A stretch of DNA of 64,000 nt from Patescibacteria group bacterium. GTDB taxonomy: Bacteria; Patescibacteriota; Patescibacteriia; UBA9934. Numbering within the stretch: position 1 is the stretch's first letter; each line of letters starts with the position of its first letter. The notes below the pieces were generated by a model, which was given only the letters and a program-made list of their open reading frames with translations, ran no database searches and was not told the origin of the DNA. The stretch is taken from contig JBAQTB010000001.1 of assembly GCA_049296775.1 (NCBI GenBank), positions 357,284-421,283 of the forward strand, written 5' to 3'. Of the stretch, positions 2,747 through 23,525 are shown one piece after another. The translations under genes were made by a program, and so were the position numbers.

Positions 2747-5251
2747 ATGGCCAACAAATCCGACGATCAATTGTCAGCAGACTTGCTACCGATGGGAATA
2801 ATTAAAGAGCAAAGCATTACGGAAGAAATGCGCCGGGCGTATTTGGATTACGCCATGTCCGTGATTGTGTCTCGGGCTTTGCCGGACGTGAGAGACGGCA
2901 TGAAACCGGTGCACCGCCGTATTTTGTACGCCATGTGGACGATTGGTTTGCGGGCGAATGCACGTTTCCGTAAGTCAGCTAACGTAGTTGGAGAAGTAAT
3001 GGCTAAGTATCACCCTCACGGTGACAGTGCTATTTACGAATCCATGGTGCGCATGGCTCAGGATTTTTCTTATCGCTACCCATTGGTCAATGGTCAGGGT
3101 AACTTCGGTTCCATGGACGGAGACGCAGCGGCGGCTATGCGTTACACCGAAGCTAAATTGTCAGGTATCGCAGAAGAATTGTTGGTAGATATTGAACGTG
3201 AGACGGTTAATTTTACCAAAAACTACGACGGTCAGCATGATGAGCCAGTAGTTTTGCCGGCTAAGTTGCCAAACCTGCTAGTCAACGGCATGTTGGGTAT
3301 CGCGGTGGGTATGGCGACTAACATTCCTCCACATAACGTGAAGGAGGTGTGTAACGGTATGTTGGCCCTCATTGATAACGCGGACGTTTCCATTGAAGAT
3401 TTGATGCAGCATATTCCGGGGCCTGACTTTCCAACCGGTGGAATTGTGTACGGCGCGAATGACATGAAGATTGCGTATAGTACGGGCAGAGGCGGGGTGG
3501 TGTGTCGGGCGCAGGCGGATATTGTGGAAGGGAAGAAAGATAATCACCAGATTGTGATTACGGAGATCCCGTACATGGTCAACAAAGCATCTTTGCTAGA
3601 AAAGATCGCAGATTTAGTGCGGGAAAAGCGCTTGGACGGCATCAGGGATTTGCGTGATGAATCCAACAAAGAGGGCGTGAGAATTGTGGTTGAACTCAAA
3701 AAGGATTCATACCCACGCAAGGTGCTCAACATGCTGTATCAGTTGACGCCATTACAGACATCTTTCCATTACAACGTGTTGGCGCTCGTGGATGGCATTC
3801 AGCCAAGAATTTTGAACCTGAAGCAGATGCTTGAGGAACATTTGAAACATCGCAAAGAGGTGATTCGTCGGCGCACACAGTACGATTTGGATCGTATCAA
3901 GGACAGATTGCACATTCTTGAGGGGCTCAGAATTGCTCTGAAGAAGATCGATGAAGTCATTGCGACCATCAAGAAATCGGCCGATAAAGATGAGGCTAGA
4001 GGCAACTTGATGCAGAAGTTTAAAATGACCGAACGTCAGGCGATCGCTATTCTTGAGATGCGTTTGCAGGCTTTGGCGAACTTGGAGGTTCTCAAGATTG
4101 AACAGGAATACAATGAGAAGAAGGCGATCATGGAAGAGCTGGAAGCCATTCTTAAGTCCGAGAAAAAGATGTTGGCAGTGATTAGAGGCGAGTTTGTGGC
4201 TTTGATTGAGAAATACGGTGATGATCGCCGGACTAAGATTGTGAAGTCTGGTGTGAAGGAGTTCTCCATGGAGGATTTGATTCCGGATGCGCAGGCCGTG
4301 GTCATGATGACTAAGGACGGTTACATTAAGCGCTTAGCCTCTGATGCGTTTGCTGCACAGCATCGTGGTGGCAAGGGTGTCATGGGTTTGACCACTAAAG
4401 AAGAAGATTCAGTCGAGGCGGTCTTTTCTACCACCACTCACCAGGACATGATGTTCTTTACTTCTCGTGGCCGCGTGTTCCGCTTGAAGGCGTATGAGAT
4501 TCCAGAAGCCTCACGGACTGCCAAAGGTCAGGCAATTGTGAATTTCTTGGAGCTAGGCCCGGGGGAGAAGGTGACGACCGTACTTTGCAGTGATCAGAAG
4601 AAGGACAAGGCGAAGTTTATTATGATGGTGACCGGTCGCGGCACCATCAAGAAGACTTCCATGGATGATTTTGAGAACGTCCGCCGTTCTGGTTTGATTG
4701 CGATTAAGTTGAATGATGGCGATAGTCTGGAATGGGTCAAAACTACGACTGGTAAAGATGACGTCATGTTGGTGTCTGCCAACGCGCAGTCCATTCGCTT
4801 TAGCGAGGCGGATGTTAGGGCTATGGGCCGCGTAGCAGCTGGCGTAAGGGGTATGAAGTTGAAGGGAGAGGACCGGATTGTAGGCATGGATATTTTGACC
4901 CAGGAGGAAGTGCAGGCGGGTAACCAGCTCATGATTATCATGGAAAACGGTTATGGTAAGCGCACTGACGTGAATGAATACGGCCTGCAGGGAAGAGGGG
5001 GTAGCGGCATTAAGACCGCCCAGATTACTAATAAGACGGGTAAGCTGGTGGCCGGTAGAGTGGTGAAAAAGCAAGATAATCGTGATTTATTGGCGGTGTC
5101 TGTGGCTGGTCAGGTCATTCGTACCCCAGTTACGACCGTGTCTGAATTAGGTCGGGCGACCCAGGGCGTTAAGGTCATGCGCTTCAAAACCGCGGATGAC
5201 AAGGTTGCCACAGCTACTATCGTCAATCGCGAGCCAGAAGTGACGGAGTAG
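2747..5251 (+). CDS. gyrA: DNA gyrase subunit A
   Basis: 834 aa. N-terminal [39 protein letters not shown] with active-site Tyr context, and a C-terminal beta-pinwheel repeat region. Confidence 0.95.
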
Positions 5252-13163: not shown

Positions 13164-13982
13164 ATGCCAGAACTTCCTGAGGTCGAAACCGTGCGAAGAC
13201 AACTTAACGATCGTATCGCCGGAAAGACGATTCGGGAGGTTTTGGTGTTTCAGACGGGGAGAGAGACACCGGTGGGAGCGGAATTTGTACGGGCCGTGGT
13301 CGGACGAAGTTTGTTGGGTGTGGAGCGTCGGGCCAAGGTGTTGGTATTCCGGTTTGAAGATGGGGGAGCGATGTTGGGGCACCTGAAAATGACGGGTAAA
13401 TTCATTTTTGTGCCCGTTACTCACAGAGATTCTCCGGGTAAACATGACAGAATACTTTTTGTGTTCGATGATGAGACGCAGGTGGTGTGGAGTGACGTGC
13501 GTAAGTTTGGCTATCTAAAATTAGTGACCTCAGATGAGGCTCGTGAAGCTTTGGCACATTACGGGCCTGAGCCCTTGGAGGCGACAGCTCAAGAGCTAGC
13601 TGAACGCCTGGTGCGTAAATCGACACGTACCATTAAAGCAGCTTTGCTCGACCAAACGGTTATTGCAGGTATAGGCAACATCTACGCGGATGAGTCATTG
13701 TTCCGCGCTAACATTAGGCCGACACGGAAGGTCGATAAATTGACGAACGAGGAACGTTTGTTGCTAGCGACCGAGGTCAAAACAGTTTTAGCTGAATCTT
13801 TGGCACAAAATGGAACGAGTGCCAATGATTATGTGGATGCAGATGGCAAGAAAGGTGGCTTTCAGAATTTGCTCAAAGTTTACGGTCGGGGCGGGGAAGC
13901 GTGCATGGTTTGCACGGCACCAATTATTCGGACGGTCGTAGCGCAACGTGGCACGCATTACTGCGCTAAGTGTCAGCGATAG
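13164..13982 (+). CDS. mutM: formamidopyrimidine-DNA glycosylase
   Basis: MPELPEVETVRR N-terminus (catalytic Pro2/Glu3), H2TH region, and a C-terminal zinc finger CMVC...CAKC. Confidence 0.9.
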   Translation: MPELPEVETVRRQLNDRIAGKTIREVLVFQTGRETPVGAEFVRAVVGRSLLGVERRAKVLVFRFEDGGAMLGHLKMTGKFIFVPVTHRDSPGKHDRILFVFDDETQVVWSDVRKFGYLKLVTSDEAREALAHYGPEPLEATAQELAERLVRKSTRTIKAALLDQTVIAGIGNIYADESLFRANIRPTRKVDKLTNEERLLLATEVKTVLAESLAQNGTSANDYVDADGKKGGFQNLLKVYGRGGEACMVCTAPIIRTVVAQRGTHYCAKCQR

Positions 13983-14115
13983 AGTGATCAGGCAAGAAAT
14001 TAGATAGTAGATTTTAGTGTTTAGAATTTAGTCGAAATTATCAAACTCGCTCGTTTGGCTCTAAGATCTAAAGTCTATGATCTAAAATCTTCAGTAATGG
14101 TGTTACAATAATGTC

Positions 14116-14622
14116 ATGTTGAGTTTGCATAATAAATTCATGCGGGGCACCAAATTGGATGTGGGTGTGGGTTTATTGTTGACGGCGTTTGTTGGGTTGA
14201 TTGCGGTCATGATCGTAGGACCGGCACGGCAATTGGCGGCGGAACGGGATGCGGTTAGGACGGAAGATGTCAGGGGGTTGATGACGAAAATTTTGCAATT
14301 AGAGCTGGTTGATCCGGAGGCTTATACACGTTTAGAGGCAGCAGTTCAGCAGGCTGGTGATCTGAGAACGGTGATTGGTTATGGTGATTGTGCTGGTTCT
14401 TTTGGGCGTGAGTGTGCTGATGCCGTCACATCGGATAGCTGTCTGTCTTTGGCTGAGTTTTTCCCTGATTTACTGCTAGCAAGTGTGCCGGTTGATCCGG
14501 CGGAGGGTCGCTATTCAGCGGAGCGGACGGGCTATTATTTGGTCACGGTGGCAGGGGAGCTGGAGGTTGGGGCGTGTGGAGCGGCAAAGGGACCGATTAC
14601 TTTAAGAAAGGCGTTTGAATAG
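14116..14622 (+). CDS. hypothetical membrane-anchored protein
   Basis: 168 aa, one N-terminal TM helix (VGVGLLLTAFVGLIAVMIVGP), no recognised domain. Confidence 0.4.
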   Translation: MLSLHNKFMRGTKLDVGVGLLLTAFVGLIAVMIVGPARQLAAERDAVRTEDVRGLMTKILQLELVDPEAYTRLEAAVQQAGDLRTVIGYGDCAGSFGRECADAVTSDSCLSLAEFFPDLLLASVPVDPAEGRYSAERTGYYLVTVAGELEVGACGAAKGPITLRKAFE

Positions 14623-17980: not shown

Positions 17981-18006
17981 AAAAACCGCCTACGGGCGGT
18001 TTTTTG
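17981..18006. terminator. bidirectional terminator trxB/rarA
   Basis: aaaaaccgcc-tac-gggcggtttttt. The hairpin overlaps the last codons of rarA. Confidence 0.6.
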
Positions 18007-19279
18007 TGTCTTTGAGATATTTACGGTTTTTAAGTTTATCAGGCAAGTAATCTTGTTTGGCTTCGGTGGGGTTTGTGAAGGCGGGGGTGTATTTGTAGCC
18101 TTTGCCGTAATCAAGGTTTTTCATGAGTTTAGTCGGGGCGTTTCTGAGGTGGAGTGGGACAGGCTCGTTAGGCAGGGCTTGAATGTCTTGCTGGACGGCG
18201 TTGTAAGCTTCATACAGAGCATTACTTTTTGGAGCTTTGGCTAAGTAAGCGACGCATTGCGCTAGGATGACGTTGCACTCTGGCATGCCGAGCATATGGC
18301 AGGCTTGATGAGTAGTCACTGCCTGCACAAGAGCGTTTGGATCGGCTAGCCCGATGTCTTCGCTGGCAAAACGGACGAGCCTTCTAGCAATATAGAGCGG
18401 CTCTTCGCCGGCCTCTAGCATTCTACCGAGCCAATACAAGGCCGCATTGGCATCATGGCCGCGCATGGATTTGTGTAGGGCAGAAATAATGTTGTAATGT
18501 TCTTCGCCGTTGCGATCGTAAAGTAAATGCGTGCGTTGCAGGGCTTGTTTGAGCAAGTCTTCCGTGATGCTGGGACGGGTCGACGACCCGTCCGTATTGC
18601 GCGGAGCAATATGCGCTGCGATTTCCAGCGTATTCAAAGCGCTCCGGGCATCGCCGTCAGAAATGGTCGCTAGGAGTGTTAAGGTCGCCTCGTCAATTTG
18701 TAGATTCTCGTTACCGAGGCCACGTTCTTTGTCTTTCAGGGCGCGGCGCAAGATCTTTTCCAGGGCCGGAGTCTCAAGTTTGTTGAGTACAACTACTCGG
18801 CAACGTGATAGCAAAGCGGCGTTCACTTGAAATGACGGATTTTCGGTAGTGGCGCCAATTAGAGTGACGATGCCTTTTTCTACCGCTGGCAAAAAAGCAT
18901 CTTGTTGGGCTTTATTGAACCTGTGAATTTCATCCACGAATAAAATCGTTTTTTCAGCATAAAATTTCCGTCTCGTCTCCGCATCTTTGATGAGATCTCT
19001 CACATCTTTGACCGTGCCGGAGACGGCGCTAAATGGCATGTATCTGGACTTGGTCATGTTGGCAATAATTTGACCCAGTGTAGTTTTGCCAACGCCCGGT
19101 GGTCCCCAGAAGATCATGGAGGGGAGTTGGTCTGATTGCAGCGCGGCCTTAAGAAAGCCTTGATCACTAATCGCGGCCATTTGCCCCTCATAATCACTCA
19201 AGGTTTGCGGACGCATGCGTTCAGCCAACGGCGCGCCAAGCTGCAAGTTTTTCGCCAATTTAGCTTCAAACAGATCCAT
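17990..19279 (-). CDS. rarA: replication-associated recombination protein A (AAA+ ATPase)
   Basis: Walker [13 protein letters not shown], Walker [12 protein letters not shown], MgsA C-terminal helical domain. Confidence 0.9.
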
Positions 19280-19324
19280 ACTGGAATAGTGTACGGCGCT
19301 AAGGACTTGCTGTAAATAAAAAAA

Positions 19325-19358
19325 CTGCCCAGTCCTTTTAGACTAGGCAGGCGTTGAT
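19325..19358 (-). terminator. terminator of the NUDIX gene
   Basis: Minus-strand hairpin ctgcc-tagtctaaaaggact-gggcag followed by TTTTTT. Confidence 0.5.
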
Positions 19359-19377
19359 CACCGCGCAGGAGCGTGGG

Positions 19378-20049
19378 TCAGTTCAGGAGCCACTTGGCGA
19401 TGCCTGCGAGTGTGAACCCGCAGTAGATGTCGCCGGCGTCCACCATGGACTTCACCTCTTCTTTTGTGAAGAAGGTGAGGGGCGAGAGCAGCTTCTCGTT
19501 GCGGTCTGGAGCGGCGCCGCTCGGCTTGTCCAGATCGACCGTCGCCATCTGCATGGCAGTCAGGTGCGGGCTCGAGGCGGTGTTGTCGGAGACGTAGCCC
19601 AGGGCTCGGCTGCTCGTGACCTTGCTGCCGGTCTCTTCTTCGGTCTCTCGGACCGCGGCGTCTGCGCCGGATTCCGCTTGGCCGCCTGGGTTGATGTTGG
19701 CGAACCCGCGCGGGAGCTCCCAGCTGGAGCGACCGAGCAGCGTCAGGTCGAGTTTTGGCCAGTTGTTCTTCCACTCGTCCTGGTTCCGAGTGTTGGGGCG
19801 ATGAGCTTTCTGCAGGCCAATACGGCCTGCTGTGTCGACGACCACGGACACCCCCCCGCCTGGCTCGCAGCGCAGGATTTGGTCGTAGAGGACCTTCTTG
19901 TCGCCGGCGTCGTTTTCGTCGATCCAGGCGACGTGCACTACTTGCACGCCAACTTTGAGGTTCTGGAAGACGATGTCGCCTTCTCCGGCAGACCAGCCCG
20001 GTTGAAGTCCCGGAGCTTCGCTTGCAGGCACCACGTAACGTTGAGACAT
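19378..20049 (-). CDS. NUDIX hydrolase (high-GC, compositionally foreign)
   Basis: Nudix box GFANINPGGQAESGADAAVRETEEETG (GX5EX7REUXEEXGU). AAGGAGA RBS 7 nt upstream of ATG. About 62% GC versus ~48% in the flanks. Other-frame ORFs in this segment are high-GC artefacts. Confidence 0.8.
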   Translation of the reverse strand: MSQRYVVPASEAPGLQPGWSAGEGDIVFQNLKVGVQVVHVAWIDENDAGDKKVLYDQILRCEPGGGVSVVVDTAGRIGLQKAHRPNTRNQDEWKNNWPKLDLTLLGRSSWELPRGFANINPGGQAESGADAAVRETEEETGSKVTSSRALGYVSDNTASSPHLTAMQMATVDLDKPSGAAPDRNEKLLSPLTFFTKEEVKSMVDAGDIYCGFTLAGIAKWLLN

Positions 20050-20136
20050 CGTGTCGTTCTCCTTGTATCGCCGGATGATTCAGGCGACGTGAGACTTTAA
20101 TCGATGCGAGAATAAAAGTCAAATAAAGCCTGAACA

Positions 20137-21048
20137 TCAGGCTTGTTTTAGCTTTATCAACTTCGCCACAAAGAAACCTTCGGCTTCGTCGGTGGGGAGG
20201 AGAGTGATGGTTTTGTGGGCGGTTTTGCGAGTGTTTTTGAGAGGGATTGCGATTTCAACTGGCTGCATGAAGGGGAACTCGTTAATTAGCCAAGCGACCA
20301 TGCCTTCATTTTCTTCTGGGGCTAAAGTACAGGTTGAATAAACCAAGGTACCGCCGGGTTTGAGACAGGCGACGGCTGATTTGAGTAAACGGCGTTGGAG
20401 TTTGGCGTGGGCAATGATATTTTTTTCTGACCAGTATTTGTAAGTGCGGAGGTCGGAAAAATCAATGCGGCCTTCTGCAGAGCAGGGGACATCTGCCAGG
20501 ACTTTATCAAAGGCTTCGGGTAACTCTTTATACAGTTGAGCGGCGTCTAGATTTCTAGCGGTGACAGAAGTTGCGCCCTGGATATTTAATGTGTTCAGGA
20601 GTTTTTGGTAGCGAATATCATTATCTTCTGTGGCGATGATCTTGGCTTGGTTATTGGTAAGCGTAGCGATTTCGCTGGTCTTGCTACCGGGCGCTGCGCA
20701 GAGGTCAAGAATTGTATCCGTAGGTTTGAGATCCATGAGGAGTGGCGGCAACATGGAAGTTAGACCTTGCAAATAGATCTGTCCGGAGGTCGCTAGTTCG
20801 TGTTCGAGTAATTGTTTATCTGTACGGTTTTTAATTTTAAAGGCGTGGGGAATGTCTTTGACACGTTCAAAGGCGATCGCCTGTTCACGCAAAACACTCA
20901 TGACCTGTTCGTCAGTGGCTTTGAGAGTATTAACTCTGAAGGTGGGGAGTCGGGGTTTAGCAAAAGTTTTGAGCATGGCGGCCAGACTATTTGGTCCAAA
21001 CTGCACACTTAAGCGATCAGATAAGCTTTGGGGTAGGGGGTTTTTCAT
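20137..21048 (-). CDS. rRNA (cytosine-C5)-methyltransferase, NOL1/NOP2/Sun family (RsmB/RsmF-like)
   Basis: SAM-binding DLCAAPGSKT, catalytic region with PCS and TC cysteines (DVPCSAEG...YSTCT). Confidence 0.8.
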   Translation of the reverse strand: MKNPLPQSLSDRLSVQFGPNSLAAMLKTFAKPRLPTFRVNTLKATDEQVMSVLREQAIAFERVKDIPHAFKIKNRTDKQLLEHELATSGQIYLQGLTSMLPPLLMDLKPTDTILDLCAAPGSKTSEIATLTNNQAKIIATEDNDIRYQKLLNTLNIQGATSVTARNLDAAQLYKELPEAFDKVLADVPCSAEGRIDFSDLRTYKYWSEKNIIAHAKLQRRLLKSAVACLKPGGTLVYSTCTLAPEENEGMVAWLINEFPFMQPVEIAIPLKNTRKTAHKTITLLPTDEAEGFFVAKLIKLKQA

Positions 21049-21182: not shown

Positions 21183-23525
21183 ATGTCCTACGATCATAAG
21201 CGTATTGATGCTAAGTGGCAGCAGCGTTGGGATGAGGCTAAGATTTTTGAGGCCCAGGATGGCTCCAAGAAAGACAAATACTACGTGCTCGTAGAGTTTC
21301 CGTATCCGTCTGGCGCTGGTCTTCACGTTGGACACCCGCGTAGCTATACCGCTCTTGATATTGTGGCGCGGAAGAAGCGCATGGAGGGCAAGAATGTATT
21401 GTTCCCTATGGGCTGGGATGCCTTTGGTTTGCCGGCGGAGAATTACGCTATCAAGACTGGTGTACATCCAAGTGTAGTGACTCGTGAAAATATCGACAAC
21501 TTCCGCCGCCAGCTGAAGGCGATCGGTTTTAGTTTTGATTGGTCACGTGAGGTGAATACGACCGATCCCAAGTATTACCGCTGGACGCAGTGGATGTTTA
21601 ATCAATTCTTTAAGGCGGGGCTGGCCTATAAAGCAAAAGCTACAATTAACTGGTGTCCAAAAGACAAAACTGGCTTGGCGAATGAGGAAGTGGTGGGGGG
21701 AGCATGTGAACGCTGTGGCACGCCGGTTGAAAAACGTGAGAAAGAACAGTGGATGATTGCGATCACCAAATACGCCGATCGTTTACTGGAGGATCTGAAC
21801 ACGGTCGACTATTTGCCAAAAATCAAAAAGCAACAAGAAGATTGGATCGGTAAAAGCGAAGGCGCCGAGATCGATTTTTCACTGCGCCTTCCCCCCTTGG
21901 ATAAGGGGGGAGCAAGGGGGGTCGTCTCTACGACTTGCCTAACCGCCTTCACCACCCGCCCTGACACCATTTTCGGTGTGACTTACATTGTTCTTGCTCC
22001 GGAACATCCTTGGGTTAAGCTCGCGACCGATGATCAGCATGATGTTCTCGAGAATAAAGAGGAAGTAAGGGCTTATCTTGAGAGCGTAAAATCTCGCACC
22101 GAGATTGATCGTACCAATGACGACAAAGAAAAGACGGGTGTCGAGCTGAAGGGCGTGAAGGCTATCAACCCAGCTACGGGCGAAGAGATCCCGATGTGGG
22201 TGGCGGATTATGTTTTGCCTAATTATGGCACCGGTGTCGTCATGGCCGTCCCGGCGCATGATGAGCGTGATCGAGCGTTCGCTGAGAAATACGCTTTGCC
22301 GATTGTCGATGAACCGCTAGTTAGTTTTGATGAAGGTATTGAAAAATCCAAAGGTCGAAAGAAGACAAATTATCGCCTCCGTGATTGGGTATTTTCTCGT
22401 CAGCGGTATTGGGGTGAGCCGATTCCGTTAGTTCATTGTGAGAAAGACGGGTGGGTAGCTGTGCCGGACGAGCAGTTGCCAGTTGAGCTTCCGAAGGTCG
22501 AGAAGTATGAGCCCACTGACAGCGGCGAATCTCCACTTGCGAGTATCGAAAGTTTTGTAAATACGACCTGTCCAACTTGTGGTGGGCCGGCGAAGCGAGA
22601 GACGGATACGATGCCAAACTGGGCTGGGTCGAGTTGGTATTTCCTCCGCTATATTGATCCAAGCAACGATACGGAGTTCGCATCGAAGAAAGCGCTAAAG
22701 TACTGGACGCCGGTTGATCTTTACAACGGTGGGATGGAACATACGACACTCCACTTGTTGTACTCGCGTTTCTGGAACAAGTTTTTGTTCGATCAAGGCT
22801 TGGTGCCAACGAGTGAGCCTTACATGCGCCGGCACAGTCACGGTTTGATTATGTCCGAGGACGGCACGAAGATGTCTAAGTCCAAGGGGAACGTGGTGAA
22901 TCCGGATGAAGTTGTGGCTGAGTACGGAGCTGATGCTTTCCGGGCGTATATTTTGTTCATGGGGCCATTTGAAGAGCACGTGCCGTGGTCCACTAATGGT
23001 TTGGTGGGCGTGCGTAGATTCTTGGACAAGGTTGAACGCTTGGCGGATAAGTTGGGTGACGAAACGCCGGAGGTGACCAAGGCACTGCACAAAACAATTC
23101 AAAAAGTTAGCAGTGACATTGAGAGTTTCCGTTTCAATACGGCCGTGAGCGAACTCATGAAGTTTGTTAATTTGGTGCAAGAGACAAAGTCGTTGTCGGC
23201 TGAAAGCTTTAAAGTGTTTTTGACACTTTTGTCCCCATTTGCTCCACACTTAGCGAATGAGTTGTGGGAACAGTTGGGTATGACGGGGCTAGTTGAAGAA
23301 CAGTCTTGGCCAGTGGCGGATGAGAAGTTTTTGGTAGACGATAAAATTACCATCGTGGTTCAGGTGAACGGCAAGCTCCGGGCTAGTTTAGAAGTCTCGC
23401 CTGAGATTAGTGATGAAGATTTGTTGCAGTTAGCCAAGGCAGATGAGAATGTACAGAAGTTTTTGGTGGGGGAGATTAAGAAGGAGATCGTGGTGAAGGG
23501 TAAGCTGGTCAATTTCGTAGTGTAA
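21183..23525 (+). CDS. leuS: leucine--tRNA ligase
   Basis: HVGH class I motif, KMSKS (KMSKSKGN), CP1 editing region (TTRPDTIFGVTYIVLAPEHP), 780 aa. Contains the in-frame repeat copy at 21883..21924. Confidence 0.95.
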   Translation: MSYDHKRIDAKWQQRWDEAKIFEAQDGSKKDKYYVLVEFPYPSGAGLHVGHPRSYTALDIVARKKRMEGKNVLFPMGWDAFGLPAENYAIKTGVHPSVVTRENIDNFRRQLKAIGFSFDWSREVNTTDPKYYRWTQWMFNQFFKAGLAYKAKATINWCPKDKTGLANEEVVGGACERCGTPVEKREKEQWMIAITKYADRLLEDLNTVDYLPKIKKQQEDWIGKSEGAEIDFSLRLPPLDKGGARGVVSTTCLTAFTTRPDTIFGVTYIVLAPEHPWVKLATDDQHDVLENKEEVRAYLESVKSRTEIDRTNDDKEKTGVELKGVKAINPATGEEIPMWVADYVLPNYGTGVVMAVPAHDERDRAFAEKYALPIVDEPLVSFDEGIEKSKGRKKTNYRLRDWVFSRQRYWGEPIPLVHCEKDGWVAVPDEQLPVELPKVEKYEPTDSGESPLASIESFVNTTCPTCGGPAKRETDTMPNWAGSSWYFLRYIDPSNDTEFASKKALKYWTPVDLYNGGMEHTTLHLLYSRFWNKFLFDQGLVPTSEPYMRRHSHGLIMSEDGTKMSKSKGNVVNPDEVVAEYGADAFRAYILFMGPFEEHVPWSTNGLVGVRRFLDKVERLADKLGDETPEVTKALHKTIQKVSSDIESFRFNTAVSELMKFVNLVQETKSLSAESFKVFLTLLSPFAPHLANELWEQLGMTGLVEEQSWPVADEKFLVDDKITIVVQVNGKLRASLEVSPEISDEDLLQLAKADENVQKFLVGEIKKEIVVKGKLVNFVV
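21883..21924. repeat. copy A of the short palindromic C5-TTGATAA-G5 repeat (inside leuS, in-frame)
   Basis: ctgcgccttccccccttggataaggggggagcaaggggggtc. About 85% identical over ~45 nt to 26436..26484 and clearly related to 30169..30200. Confidence 0.6.

What the first reader, a model, noticed from the sequence alone, without database searches (positions are those of the whole stretch)
19325..20110. High-GC NUDIX hydrolase gene wedged between rarA and rsmB: likely horizontal acquisition
The 223-aa NUDIX ORF has a canonical Nudix box. It is ~62% GC (individual 60-nt stretches reach 72%), sharply above both flanks (~45-50%), which is why every frame there shows long spurious ORFs. It carries its own RBS and terminator. 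If the host genome is an epibiont/CPR type, a high-GC donor such as an actinobacterial host is a plausible source. That source is inference.
Basis: partly seen in the sequence, partly recalled or inferred. Interest (0 to 1): 0.6.

Follow-up and report, generated by a model that had tools for sequence, protein, structure and literature searches.

The report
GC-rich Nudix cassette in variable slot
A single GC-rich Nudix hydrolase gene sits in a fast-changing slot between two core genes of a Patescibacteria (Uhrbacteria-like) genome; it is swappable accessory cargo shared among such bacteria, not a detectable import from an actinobacterial host.

Summary
A 223-aa Nudix ORF (19378-20049, minus strand) is 62.6% GC with GC3 0.78. 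The window is 48.7% GC and its 64 other ORFs have GC3 0.34-0.58 (z about 6). The gene has its own promoter-like site, AAGGAG RBS and terminator.

In five related genomes the rsmB-rarA interval holds different cargo, and 9 of 10 cargo genes have GC3 >= 0.70, against 0 of 92 core genes. So this is flexible cargo in a replacement hotspot.

The nearest homologues (52-59% identity) lie in related Patescibacteria. Two occupy the same slot, and one of those is labelled Candidatus Uhrbacteria. Every named family member is Patescibacteria/Uhrbacteria, and none is actinobacterial, plasmid or phage.

In low-GC Patescibacteria the gene is 6-20 points GC-richer than its flanks, in four separate genomic contexts. 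In two contigs of about 60% GC it matches its surroundings.

I could not resolve why the GC excess persists although synonymous sites are near saturation.

Verdict: ordinary accessory gene with one curious compositional pattern.

The parts
19378..20049 (-). Nudix hydrolase CDS, 223 aa, GC 62.6%, GC3 0.78. Predicted two-domain NudF/NudK-like NDP-X pyrophosphatase.
20059..20064 (-). Shine-Dalgarno AAGGAG, 9 nt upstream of the ATG
   Evidence: Read directly from the sequence.
20094..20122 (-). Promoter-like site, TTGACT-17-TAAAGT, in front of the Nudix gene
   Evidence: Consensus scan: 3 sites found against 0.2 expected in shuffles. A consensus match only.
19315..19350 (-). Intrinsic-terminator-like hairpin (11 pairs) plus T-run, 3' of the Nudix gene
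20126..20144 (-). Terminator-like hairpin of rsmB overlapping its stop codon. It marks the left edge of the variable slot.
   Evidence: Homology among relatives ends at the rsmB stop codon.
19288..19316 (-). rarA promoter-like site, TTTACA-17-TACACT, conserved in relatives. It marks the right edge of the variable slot.
   Evidence: Alignment of five relatives shows conservation from this point into rarA and none upstream of it.
17990..19279 (-). rarA/mgsA (429 aa), conserved flank
   Evidence: Pfam MgsA_C, AAA_assoc_2 and AAA. 73-87% identical orthologues in relatives.
20137..21048 (-). RsmB/F-family rRNA m5C methyltransferase (303 aa), conserved flank
   Evidence: Pfam Methyltr_RsmB-F at 152.7 bits. 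66-84% identical orthologues in relatives.
19354..20100 (+). Spurious 248-aa ORF in the codon-aligned antisense frame of the Nudix gene
   Evidence: The same frame carries 1-6 stops in L002, L006, L007, L011, L013, L019 and L020, so it is not conserved.

Best explanation
The region from about 19315 to 20125 is a self-contained one-gene cassette: promoter-like site, RBS, Nudix CDS and terminator.

Where it sits: it occupies a replacement hotspot between the core genes rsmB and rarA of an Uhrbacteria-like Patescibacteria genome. Each related genome carries different cargo in this interval. Sequence homology stops exactly at the rsmB stop codon and the rarA promoter. No integrase, tRNA gene or flanking repeats are present. 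Inference: cargo is most likely swapped by homologous recombination in the conserved flanks after DNA uptake; a ComEC gene lies nearby.

What it encodes: the product belongs to a small, uncharacterised Nudix family whose named members are all Patescibacteria. Its predicted fold is that of the NudF / NudK / NDP-sugar hydrolase group. Inference: it hydrolyses the pyrophosphate bond of an NDP-X compound such as ADP-ribose or a GDP- or ADP-sugar, using the intact REx2EE metal-binding residues.

What the GC excess means: it is real, but it is a property of this gene family and of the clade's slot cargo in general. It is not the scar of one recent import from an actinobacterial host. The cassette most likely circulates within a gene-sharing network of Patescibacteria that includes, or draws on, genomes of about 60% GC.
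For: Composition outlier:
- z is about 6, and no other ORF in 64 kb comes close.

Hotspot:
- Five different cargo sets occupy the slot in five relatives with 73-87% identical rarA.
- 9 of 10 slot cargo genes have GC3 >= 0.70, against 0 of 92 core genes (Fisher p = 4e-12; raw values).
- Breakpoints fall at the rsmB stop codon and the rarA -35.
- There are no meaningful flanking repeats.
- GC3 shows no gradient in rarA or rsmB towards the slot, so the boundaries are sharp.

Lineage:
- Closest homologues are P0002 (58%), P0003 (57%, same slot) and P0004 (52%, same slot, Uhrbacteria MAG).
- The scan of GTDB species representatives found only four Uhrbacteria.
- The window's copy groups with these in an NJ tree, sister to the classic Uhrbacteria copies.

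Family-wide GC excess (gene % / flank %): L002 65/51, L011 61/52, L003 55/46, L006 57/47, L012 59/43, L019 53/38, L021 66/46, L044 59/49.

Copies that match their surroundings: contigs of about 60% GC, L043 60/59 and L045 56/60.

Function:
- AF2 model with pLDDT 91.
- A profile search of PDB sequences gives ADPR pyrophosphatases as the best full-length matches.
- In Uhrbacteria the gene lies among NDP-sugar genes (NTP_transferase/GMPPB_C, epimerase, RmlD, hexose dehydratase) and next to an IMPase-like gene.

Literature: most HGT detected in aquifer Patescibacteria is between Patescibacteria (PMC12455944).
Against: - No donor was identified, and no homologue above 59% identity exists among 5.8 billion proteins. 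The time and direction of transfer are therefore unknown.
- Three relatives (window, L002, L011) carry the gene in the same slot, and the Nudix tree is roughly compatible with the core-gene relationships. Vertical descent with losses is therefore a live alternative to repeated import.
- If recombination uses rsmB/rarA homology, donors must be relatives with genomes of about 50% GC. That makes the persistent GC3 of 0.74-0.87 hard to explain by passive carry-over, because 4-fold sites are near saturation (window-L011: 0.35 identical against 0.35 expected; window-L002: 0.51 against 0.38).
- Recombination itself is inferred, not observed.
- The substrate is inferred from fold and gene context only. 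No NCBIfam equivalog comes near its cutoff.
Confidence: 0.6

Rival explanations
1. The Nudix gene has been inherited vertically in this slot since the common ancestor of the window, L002 and L011 lineages, and was lost or replaced in L015, L016 and the P0018 lineage. Its high GC3 is actively maintained, either by selection on synonymous sites or mRNA, or by GC-biased repair acting on the cargo.
For: - The gene has the same slot and orientation in three relatives.
- In the NJ tree of the Nudix proteins L011 branches first, and L011 is also the most distant of the three in rsmB identity (64-66% against 79% for window-L002), so the Nudix and core-gene relationships are roughly compatible.
- In the classic Uhrbacteria pair L003-L006, the synonymous similarity excess of the Nudix gene (0.15) lies inside the range of its syntenic neighbours (0.10-0.28). 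It therefore co-diverged with them yet keeps GC4 of 0.62-0.72 against 0.33-0.67 (mostly 0.37-0.57) in the flanks.
- 4-fold sites are near saturation across the window group, yet GC3 stays at 0.74-0.94.
Against: - Unrelated cargo genes in the same slot are equally GC-rich. A Nudix-specific selective reason therefore does not suffice.
- There is no GC3 gradient into the flanking genes, which argues against regional biased conversion.
- Highly expressed genes of the window are not GC3-rich, which argues against translational selection.
- The closest relatives by rarA (80-87% identity) lack the gene, so at least three losses or replacements are required.
- Pairwise Nudix identities do not track the core genes: L002-L011 is 60%, higher than window-L002 at 57%, although window and L002 are closer in rarA and rsmB.
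Confidence: 0.25
2. One reading: a recent direct transfer from a high-GC non-CPR organism, such as an actinobacterial host of an epibiotic Patescibacterium.
For: - By the Muto-Osawa / Lawrence-Ochman regressions (recalled from memory), GC1, GC2 and GC3 of 0.64, 0.46 and 0.78 resemble a gene at equilibrium in a genome of roughly 60-70% GC.
- Family members exist in contigs of about 60% GC and unknown taxonomy (L043, L045).
- The closest relatives by rarA lack the gene.
Against: - No homologue above 59% identity exists anywhere, and none carries an actinobacterial name.
- The nearest relatives are Patescibacteria copies in the same slot.
- In the NJ tree the window's copy is nested among Patescibacteria copies, and the copies native to high-GC contigs fall in another cluster.
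- There are no plasmid or phage carriers and no real match in viral contigs.
Confidence: 0.07
3. An assembly or binning artefact: a fragment of a high-GC organism was spliced into a Patescibacteria contig.
For: An abrupt composition change confined to about 0.8 kb.
Against: - The same arrangement is on record in two places: the protein's cluster includes an NCBI MAG contig of 455,697 bp, and a Logan contig of 53,877 bp carries the gene in the same context.
- The boundaries coincide with a terminator and with promoter-like sites.
- Homologous genes occupy the same slot in independent samples, L002 and L011.
Confidence: 0.02
4. The GC excess exists to keep a second, overlapping antisense gene open (dual coding).
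For: In the window the codon-aligned antisense frame is open for 248 codons. It has zero stops in 6 of 13 family members.
Against: The same frame has 3 stops in the syntenic orthologue L002, 3 each in L007 and L019, 6 in L020, and 1 each in L006, L011 and L013. An open codon-aligned antisense frame is the expected by-product of avoiding the A-ending codons TTA, CTA and TCA.
Confidence: 0.02

Closest known systems
NDP-X Nudix pyrophosphatases: ADP-ribose pyrophosphatase NudF (E. coli 1g0s, 1viq; M. tuberculosis 1mk1), GDP-mannose hydrolase NudK/YffH (3o52, 3o61), NudE (1vhg), Bdellovibrio NDP-sugar hydrolase (5c7q), T. thermophilus Ndx2 (2yvm)
   Same: - Two-domain architecture: an N-terminal beta-sheet domain plus a Nudix alpha/beta/alpha domain.
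- Intact E-x7-REx2EE catalytic motif.
- In Uhrbacteria the gene neighbours NDP-sugar biosynthesis genes.
   Different: - Only 13-20% sequence identity to these structures.
- No NCBIfam equivalog hit near its cutoff: best 21 bits against 200.
- Longer N-terminal region, about 100 aa.
- The window's subgroup has a 5-residue insertion inside the G-x5-E part of the Nudix box.
- The substrate is untested.
Replacement-type flexible genomic islets: variable cargo between conserved core genes, exchanged by homologous recombination of the flanks, with no mobility genes. The concept is recalled from the pangenome literature.
   Same: - Different cargo at the same inter-core-gene slot in each relative.
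- Sharp homology breakpoints at the edges of the core genes.
- No integrase, att sites or tRNA gene.
   Different: - The cargo here is GC-richer than the host, whereas recently acquired bacterial genes are typically AT-richer (established knowledge).
- The islet is only one to three genes long.
Intra-phylum horizontal gene transfer and genomic islands in aquifer Patescibacteria (PMC12455944)
   Same: That paper studied the 'nzgw' aquifer Patescibacteria MAGs, and L011's isolate name (nzgw374) follows the same naming scheme. It reports that most individual transfers are between Patescibacteria and that islands make up as much as 13% of a genome.
   Different: The paper does not mention Nudix genes, this slot or a GC-rich bias of cargo: a term search found 0 occurrences of 'nudix', 'GC-rich' and 'hotspot'.

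Membership tests
Nudix hydrolase superfamily (Pfam PF00293) | Score above the Pfam gathering threshold | tested here: met
   25.8 bits against a cutoff of 21.1, covering residues 108-199. The margin is small.
Nudix hydrolase superfamily (Pfam PF00293) | Nudix box G-x5-E-x7-R-E-U-x-E-E-x-G-U | tested here: inconclusive
   E-x7-RETEEETGS is present. G-x5-E is expanded to G-x10-E (GFANINPGGQAE) in the window and its three closest relatives. It is canonical (GFAKVGE) in the rest of the family. The catalytic Glu and Arg residues are invariant or nearly so across 15 and across 90 sequences.
Nudix hydrolase superfamily (Pfam PF00293) | Alpha/beta/alpha Nudix fold | tested here: met
ADP-ribose / NDP-sugar pyrophosphatase group (NudF, NudK, NudE, Ndx2) | Two-domain architecture with an N-terminal beta domain preceding the Nudix domain | tested here: met
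ADP-ribose / NDP-sugar pyrophosphatase group (NudF, NudK, NudE, Ndx2) | Sequence-level membership (NCBIfam equivalog, or a significant PDB sequence hit) | tested here: not met
   No equivalog is near its cutoff. PDB profile hits have E of 1e-4 to 1e-3 only. Treat the gene as fold-level kin, not as an orthologue.
ADP-ribose / NDP-sugar pyrophosphatase group (NudF, NudK, NudE, Ndx2) | Hydrolysis of ADP-ribose or NDP-sugars; domain-swapped dimer | not testable with these tools
   This needs enzyme assays and an oligomer structure.
Horizontally acquired genomic islet | Atypical base composition relative to the host genome | tested here: met
   GC 62.6% against 48.7%. GC3 0.78 against 0.49 +/- 0.044.
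Horizontally acquired genomic islet | Patchy presence among close relatives, at a variable locus | tested here: met
   Absent from the relatives with rarA 87%, 84% and 80% identical. Present in those with 76% and 73%.
Horizontally acquired genomic islet | Mobility signatures (integrase, att or direct repeats, tRNA target, phage or plasmid carrier) | tested here: not met
   No significant flanking repeats. No mobility genes in the neighbourhood. No plasmid or phage matches.
Horizontally acquired genomic islet | Identified donor lineage, or gene-tree versus species-tree conflict | tested here: inconclusive
   All named relatives are Patescibacteria. The NJ tree and pairwise identities neither clearly agree nor clearly conflict with the core genes. 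Copies native to high-GC contigs exist, but their taxonomy is unknown.

The most novel reading that the evidence does not exclude
In this Uhrbacteria-like clade, and in other Patescibacteria that carry the family, flexible genes at replacement hotspots form a distinct GC-rich pool (GC3 0.7-0.97 against about 0.5 for core genes). The pool does not ameliorate even though synonymous sites are saturated.

That would imply one of two things. Either there is continuous gene flow from a so far unsampled high-GC partner or host population into many low-GC CPR lineages, or there is a force (selection or biased repair) that specifically keeps accessory genes GC-rich. That direction is the opposite of the usual AT-rich bias of acquired bacterial genes.
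Probability: 0.25. Interest if true: 0.6.

Novelty: new member of a known kind. Interest (0 to 1): 0.33.

Why it matters
On its own this is an ordinary accessory Nudix gene. Three things give it some value.

1. It marks a well-defined replacement hotspot (rsmB-rarA) in an uncultivated Patescibacteria clade. The hotspot can be used to track gene flux between these organisms.

2. It defines an uncharacterised two-domain Nudix family: 95 clusters at E <= 1e-30 in 1.84 billion representative proteins. Its named members are all Patescibacteria. In Uhrbacteria it sits beside NDP-sugar genes, which suggests a role in nucleotide-sugar or ADP-ribose housekeeping in organisms that scavenge nucleotides.

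3. Cargo that is consistently GC-rich, rather than AT-rich, in low-GC CPR genomes could be a tracer of who exchanges DNA with whom, including possible hosts, if the pattern holds genome-wide.

Tried and rejected
- Overlapping antisense gene as the cause of the high GC: rejected. The codon-aligned antisense frame has 1-6 stops in 7 of 13 family members, including the syntenic orthologue.
- Regional GC-biased conversion at the hotspot: no GC3 gradient in rarA or rsmB towards the slot.
- Translational selection: ribosomal-protein and EF genes of the window have GC3 0.34-0.53.
- Defence-system membership: no PADLOC hit for the Nudix protein or for eight cargo or neighbour proteins.
- Phage or plasmid carriage: tblastn found nothing. 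The IMG/VR scan gave only a 41-codon match to the Nudix-box region (query residues 110-155), in a region with GC3 0.29, which is not a family member.
- att sites or target duplications: only short chance-level repeats.
- Relation to the Nudix domain inserted in the LeuRS of relatives: none, beyond a 23-residue Nudix-box match scoring 2.7 bits (5.7 bits overall); that insert is 47.5% GC.
- Taxonomy of distant family members: the listing of cluster members returned no organism names.
- Literature: a search on assembly accessions found nothing. Searches for 'Uhrbacteria + Nudix' and for GC-rich accessory genes in Patescibacteria found nothing specific.
- L011's 283-aa ORF as a degenerate Nudix paralogue: only 3.7 bits, not supported. 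L015_h253 scores 17 bits with colinear motifs, which is suggestive only.

Full report
**1. Observation**

- The ORF at 19378-20049 (minus strand) encodes 223 aa. It lies between rarA (17990-19279) and an RsmB/F-type methyltransferase (20137-21048), all on the minus strand.
- It is 62.6% GC in a 48.7% GC window. Sliding 672-bp windows elsewhere have sd 2.2% and a maximum of 55.4%.
- By codon position, GC is 0.64 / 0.46 / 0.78. The 64 other long ORFs have GC3 0.34-0.58, mean 0.49 and sd 0.044. These include the ribosomal-protein and elongation-factor genes.
- The excess is therefore mainly synonymous, is unique within 64 kb, and is not linked to expression level.
- The long ORFs in other frames exist. 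The 248-aa plus-strand ORF is the codon-aligned antisense frame.
- The gene has an AAGGAG RBS, a promoter-like site at 20122-20094 and a terminator at 19350-19325. rsmB has its own terminator and rarA its own promoter-like site.
- One correction concerns the Nudix box. E-x7-REx2EExG is intact, but G-x5-E is stretched to G-x10-E by an insertion shared with the three nearest relatives. The Pfam hit is only 25.8 bits against a cutoff of 21.1.

**2. Whose genome, and who has the gene**

- The protein is identical to an NCBI entry from a 'Patescibacteria group bacterium' MAG (contig of 455,697 bp) and is also present on an independent Logan contig with the same context.
- A word-indexed search of 5.8 billion proteins found only 15 relatives. 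The best are 58%, 57% and 52% identical, and the only named ones are Patescibacteria or Candidatus Uhrbacteria.
- A full profile search of 1.84 billion cluster representatives shows a larger family: 95 clusters at E <= 1e-30 and 375 at E <= 1e-10, mostly full-length matches.
- The scan of GTDB species representatives found four loci, all Candidatus Uhrbacteria.
- A second profile search added another 'Patescibacteria group bacterium' entry and no other phylum name.
- There are no plasmid or phage matches. The one IMG/VR match covers only the Nudix-box region (query residues 110-155).

**3. The slot is a replacement hotspot**

Relatives are ranked here by rarA identity. All keep the order infB-trx-trxB-rarA ... 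rsmB, but the cargo between rsmB and rarA differs.

| Relative | rarA identity to window | Cargo between rsmB and rarA |
|---|---|---|
| P0018 contig | 87% | A LOG/Lysine_decarbox-family gene |
| L015 | 84% | Three ORFs; one is mis-called on the wrong strand |
| L016 | 80% | A TPR protein and a Pro-rich 125-aa ORF |
| L002 | 76% | An RTX-repeat protein plus a Nudix 57% identical to the window's |
| L011 (Uhrbacteria nzgw374) | 73% | A 283-aa ORF plus a Nudix 52% identical to the window's |

- DNA alignments show that homology ends at the rsmB stop codon on one side. On the other side it resumes at the rarA -35 element.
- There are no meaningful flanking repeats or mobility genes. A ComEC gene is nearby.
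- Inference: cargo is exchanged by recombination in the conserved flanks.

**4. The GC excess is a trait of the cargo and of the family**

- Nine of ten slot cargo genes have GC3 >= 0.70 (range 0.72-0.97; the exception is 0.58). None of 92 core genes does; their maximum is 0.63. Fisher p = 4e-12.
- The Nudix family is GC-richer than its flanks in every low-GC genome examined, and in four different genomic contexts:
  - rsmB-rarA: window 63/49, L002 65/51, L011 61/52.
  - PP2C to NDP-sugar genes in classic Uhrbacteria: L003 55/46, L006 57/47, L012 59/43.
  - gyrB-FtsW: L044 59/49, with two GC-rich neighbouring genes.
  - A block next to T4SS-pilin genes: L007 53/47, with four GC-rich neighbouring genes.
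  - Also L019 53/38 and L021 66/46.
- Three contigs are different. In L043 the gene matches a contig of about 59% GC (60/59, next to a CHAT-domain protein). In L045 (56/60) and L020 (52/57) the gene is slightly less GC-rich than its contig.
- L009 carries the closest homologue. Its contig is 60% GC throughout, and the gene is 68%.

**5. Import or maintenance? Unresolved**

- 4-fold sites at conserved residues are close to saturation:
  - window-L011 Nudix: 0.35 identical against 0.35 expected from composition.
  - window-L002 Nudix: 0.51 against 0.38.
  - rarA pairs: 0.28-0.42 against 0.27-0.30.
- In the syntenic Uhrbacteria pair L003-L006, the synonymous similarity excess of the Nudix gene (0.15) lies inside the range of its neighbours (0.10-0.28). 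It therefore co-diverged with them while keeping GC4 of 0.62-0.72.
- That pattern fits either partial amelioration of a once very GC-rich gene or a force that maintains the GC.
- For the window group, GC3 of 0.74-0.94 after saturation is hard to reconcile with one ancient acquisition and passive decay. It fits repeated import from a GC-rich reservoir or active maintenance.
- Regional biased conversion is disfavoured, because there is no GC3 gradient into the flanks.
- Translational selection is disfavoured.
- Dual coding is rejected.
- MAG names in NCBI taxonomy suggest that Uhrbacteria span about 36-63% GC. This relies on the Banfield-lab naming convention, recalled from memory, in which the penultimate number of the name is GC%. 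A within-phylum high-GC reservoir is therefore conceivable. However, the GTDB scan did not find the family in such genomes (that scan used a single peptide pattern).

**6. Function**

- The AF2 model, built with the 15-sequence alignment, has pLDDT 91.
- Foldseek and the PDB sequence profile agree.
- In Uhrbacteria the gene sits among NDP-sugar genes and next to an IMPase-like gene. An IMPase-like fragment also flanks the L009 copy.
- I infer a Mg2+-dependent NDP-sugar or ADP-ribose pyrophosphatase. The substrate is untested, and no NCBIfam equivalog applies.

**7. Verdict**

- The 'horizontal acquisition' reading is supported in the limited sense that the gene is flexible cargo in a hotspot.
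- The gene is a new member of known kinds: an accessory Nudix hydrolase and a replacement-type genomic islet. Intra-phylum HGT in Patescibacteria is already documented (PMC12455944).
- The one curious point is the systematic and persistent GC-richness of the cargo in low-GC CPR genomes. I could describe this pattern but not explain it.

Noticed in passing
L002:1776-4619 (-) and the P0018 contig, compared with window 21183-23525 (+): The LeuRS of two relatives (947 and 976 aa) has a Pfam NUDIX hit within its editing-domain region. In L002, where it was examined, the domain lies at about residues 362-540, scores 52.8 bits, has a canonical box (GGGVDDGETLEDALRREIREETGY) and is 47.5% GC. The window's LeuRS (780 aa) lacks the insertion. 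The insert is unrelated to the stand-alone Nudix family. No literature on such a fusion was found.
   Followed up: partly
window 13982-14116; L015:11807-12181; L016:11343-11720: There is a second variable slot, between fpg and a 168-aa hypothetical gene. It is empty in the window. In L015 and L016 it holds a small GC-rich ORF (GC3 0.73 and 0.77). In the P0018 contig it holds a 164-aa Nudix and a 128-aa ORF.
   Followed up: partly
L043:5175-8675: In a uniformly 59% GC contig, a family member (P0136) lies 43 nt downstream of a 927-aa CHAT-domain protein. An OmpR-type response regulator is nearby. This hints at a conflict or signalling context in some lineages.
   Followed up: no
L015:3528-5146: The database gene call h233 (-) looks spurious. 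The plus-strand ORF 3633-4250 (205 aa, GC3 0.97) is the likelier gene. The next ORF, h253, has motifs colinear with the Nudix family, but its box is degenerate (AETEGSEEMG, Arg lost) and it scores only 17 bits against the family HMM.
   Followed up: partly
P0007, P0009, P0010 (L007:8189-9022): One subgroup of the family carries a C-terminal extension of about 55 aa with two CxxC pairs (RDCGACHGTG ... YCPICGGTG), which looks like a zinc ribbon. In L007 the gene heads a GC-rich block of five genes next to T4SS-pilin genes.
   Followed up: no
L006:9679-10725; L009:1-279: An IMPase/CysQ-like (Inositol_P) gene is adjacent to the Nudix gene in two otherwise different contexts. In L006 it overlaps the Nudix stop codon. 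In L009 it is divergently oriented. The two are 34% identical over 86 aa. This may be a functional pairing.
   Followed up: partly
window 1-64000: Plus-strand GC skew is positive in almost every 500-bp window, and the cumulative skew rises monotonically to 22.7. Nearly all genes are on the plus strand. The window therefore seems to lie within a single replichore with strong gene co-orientation.
   Followed up: no
L011:4586-5855: In the Uhrbacteria MAG nzgw374, two extra genes sit between rarA and trxB: an 89-aa ORF and a 321-aa acyltransferase-like ORF. They are not GC-rich (GC3 0.50 and 0.48), so not all variable genes in this clade share the GC excess.
   Followed up: no
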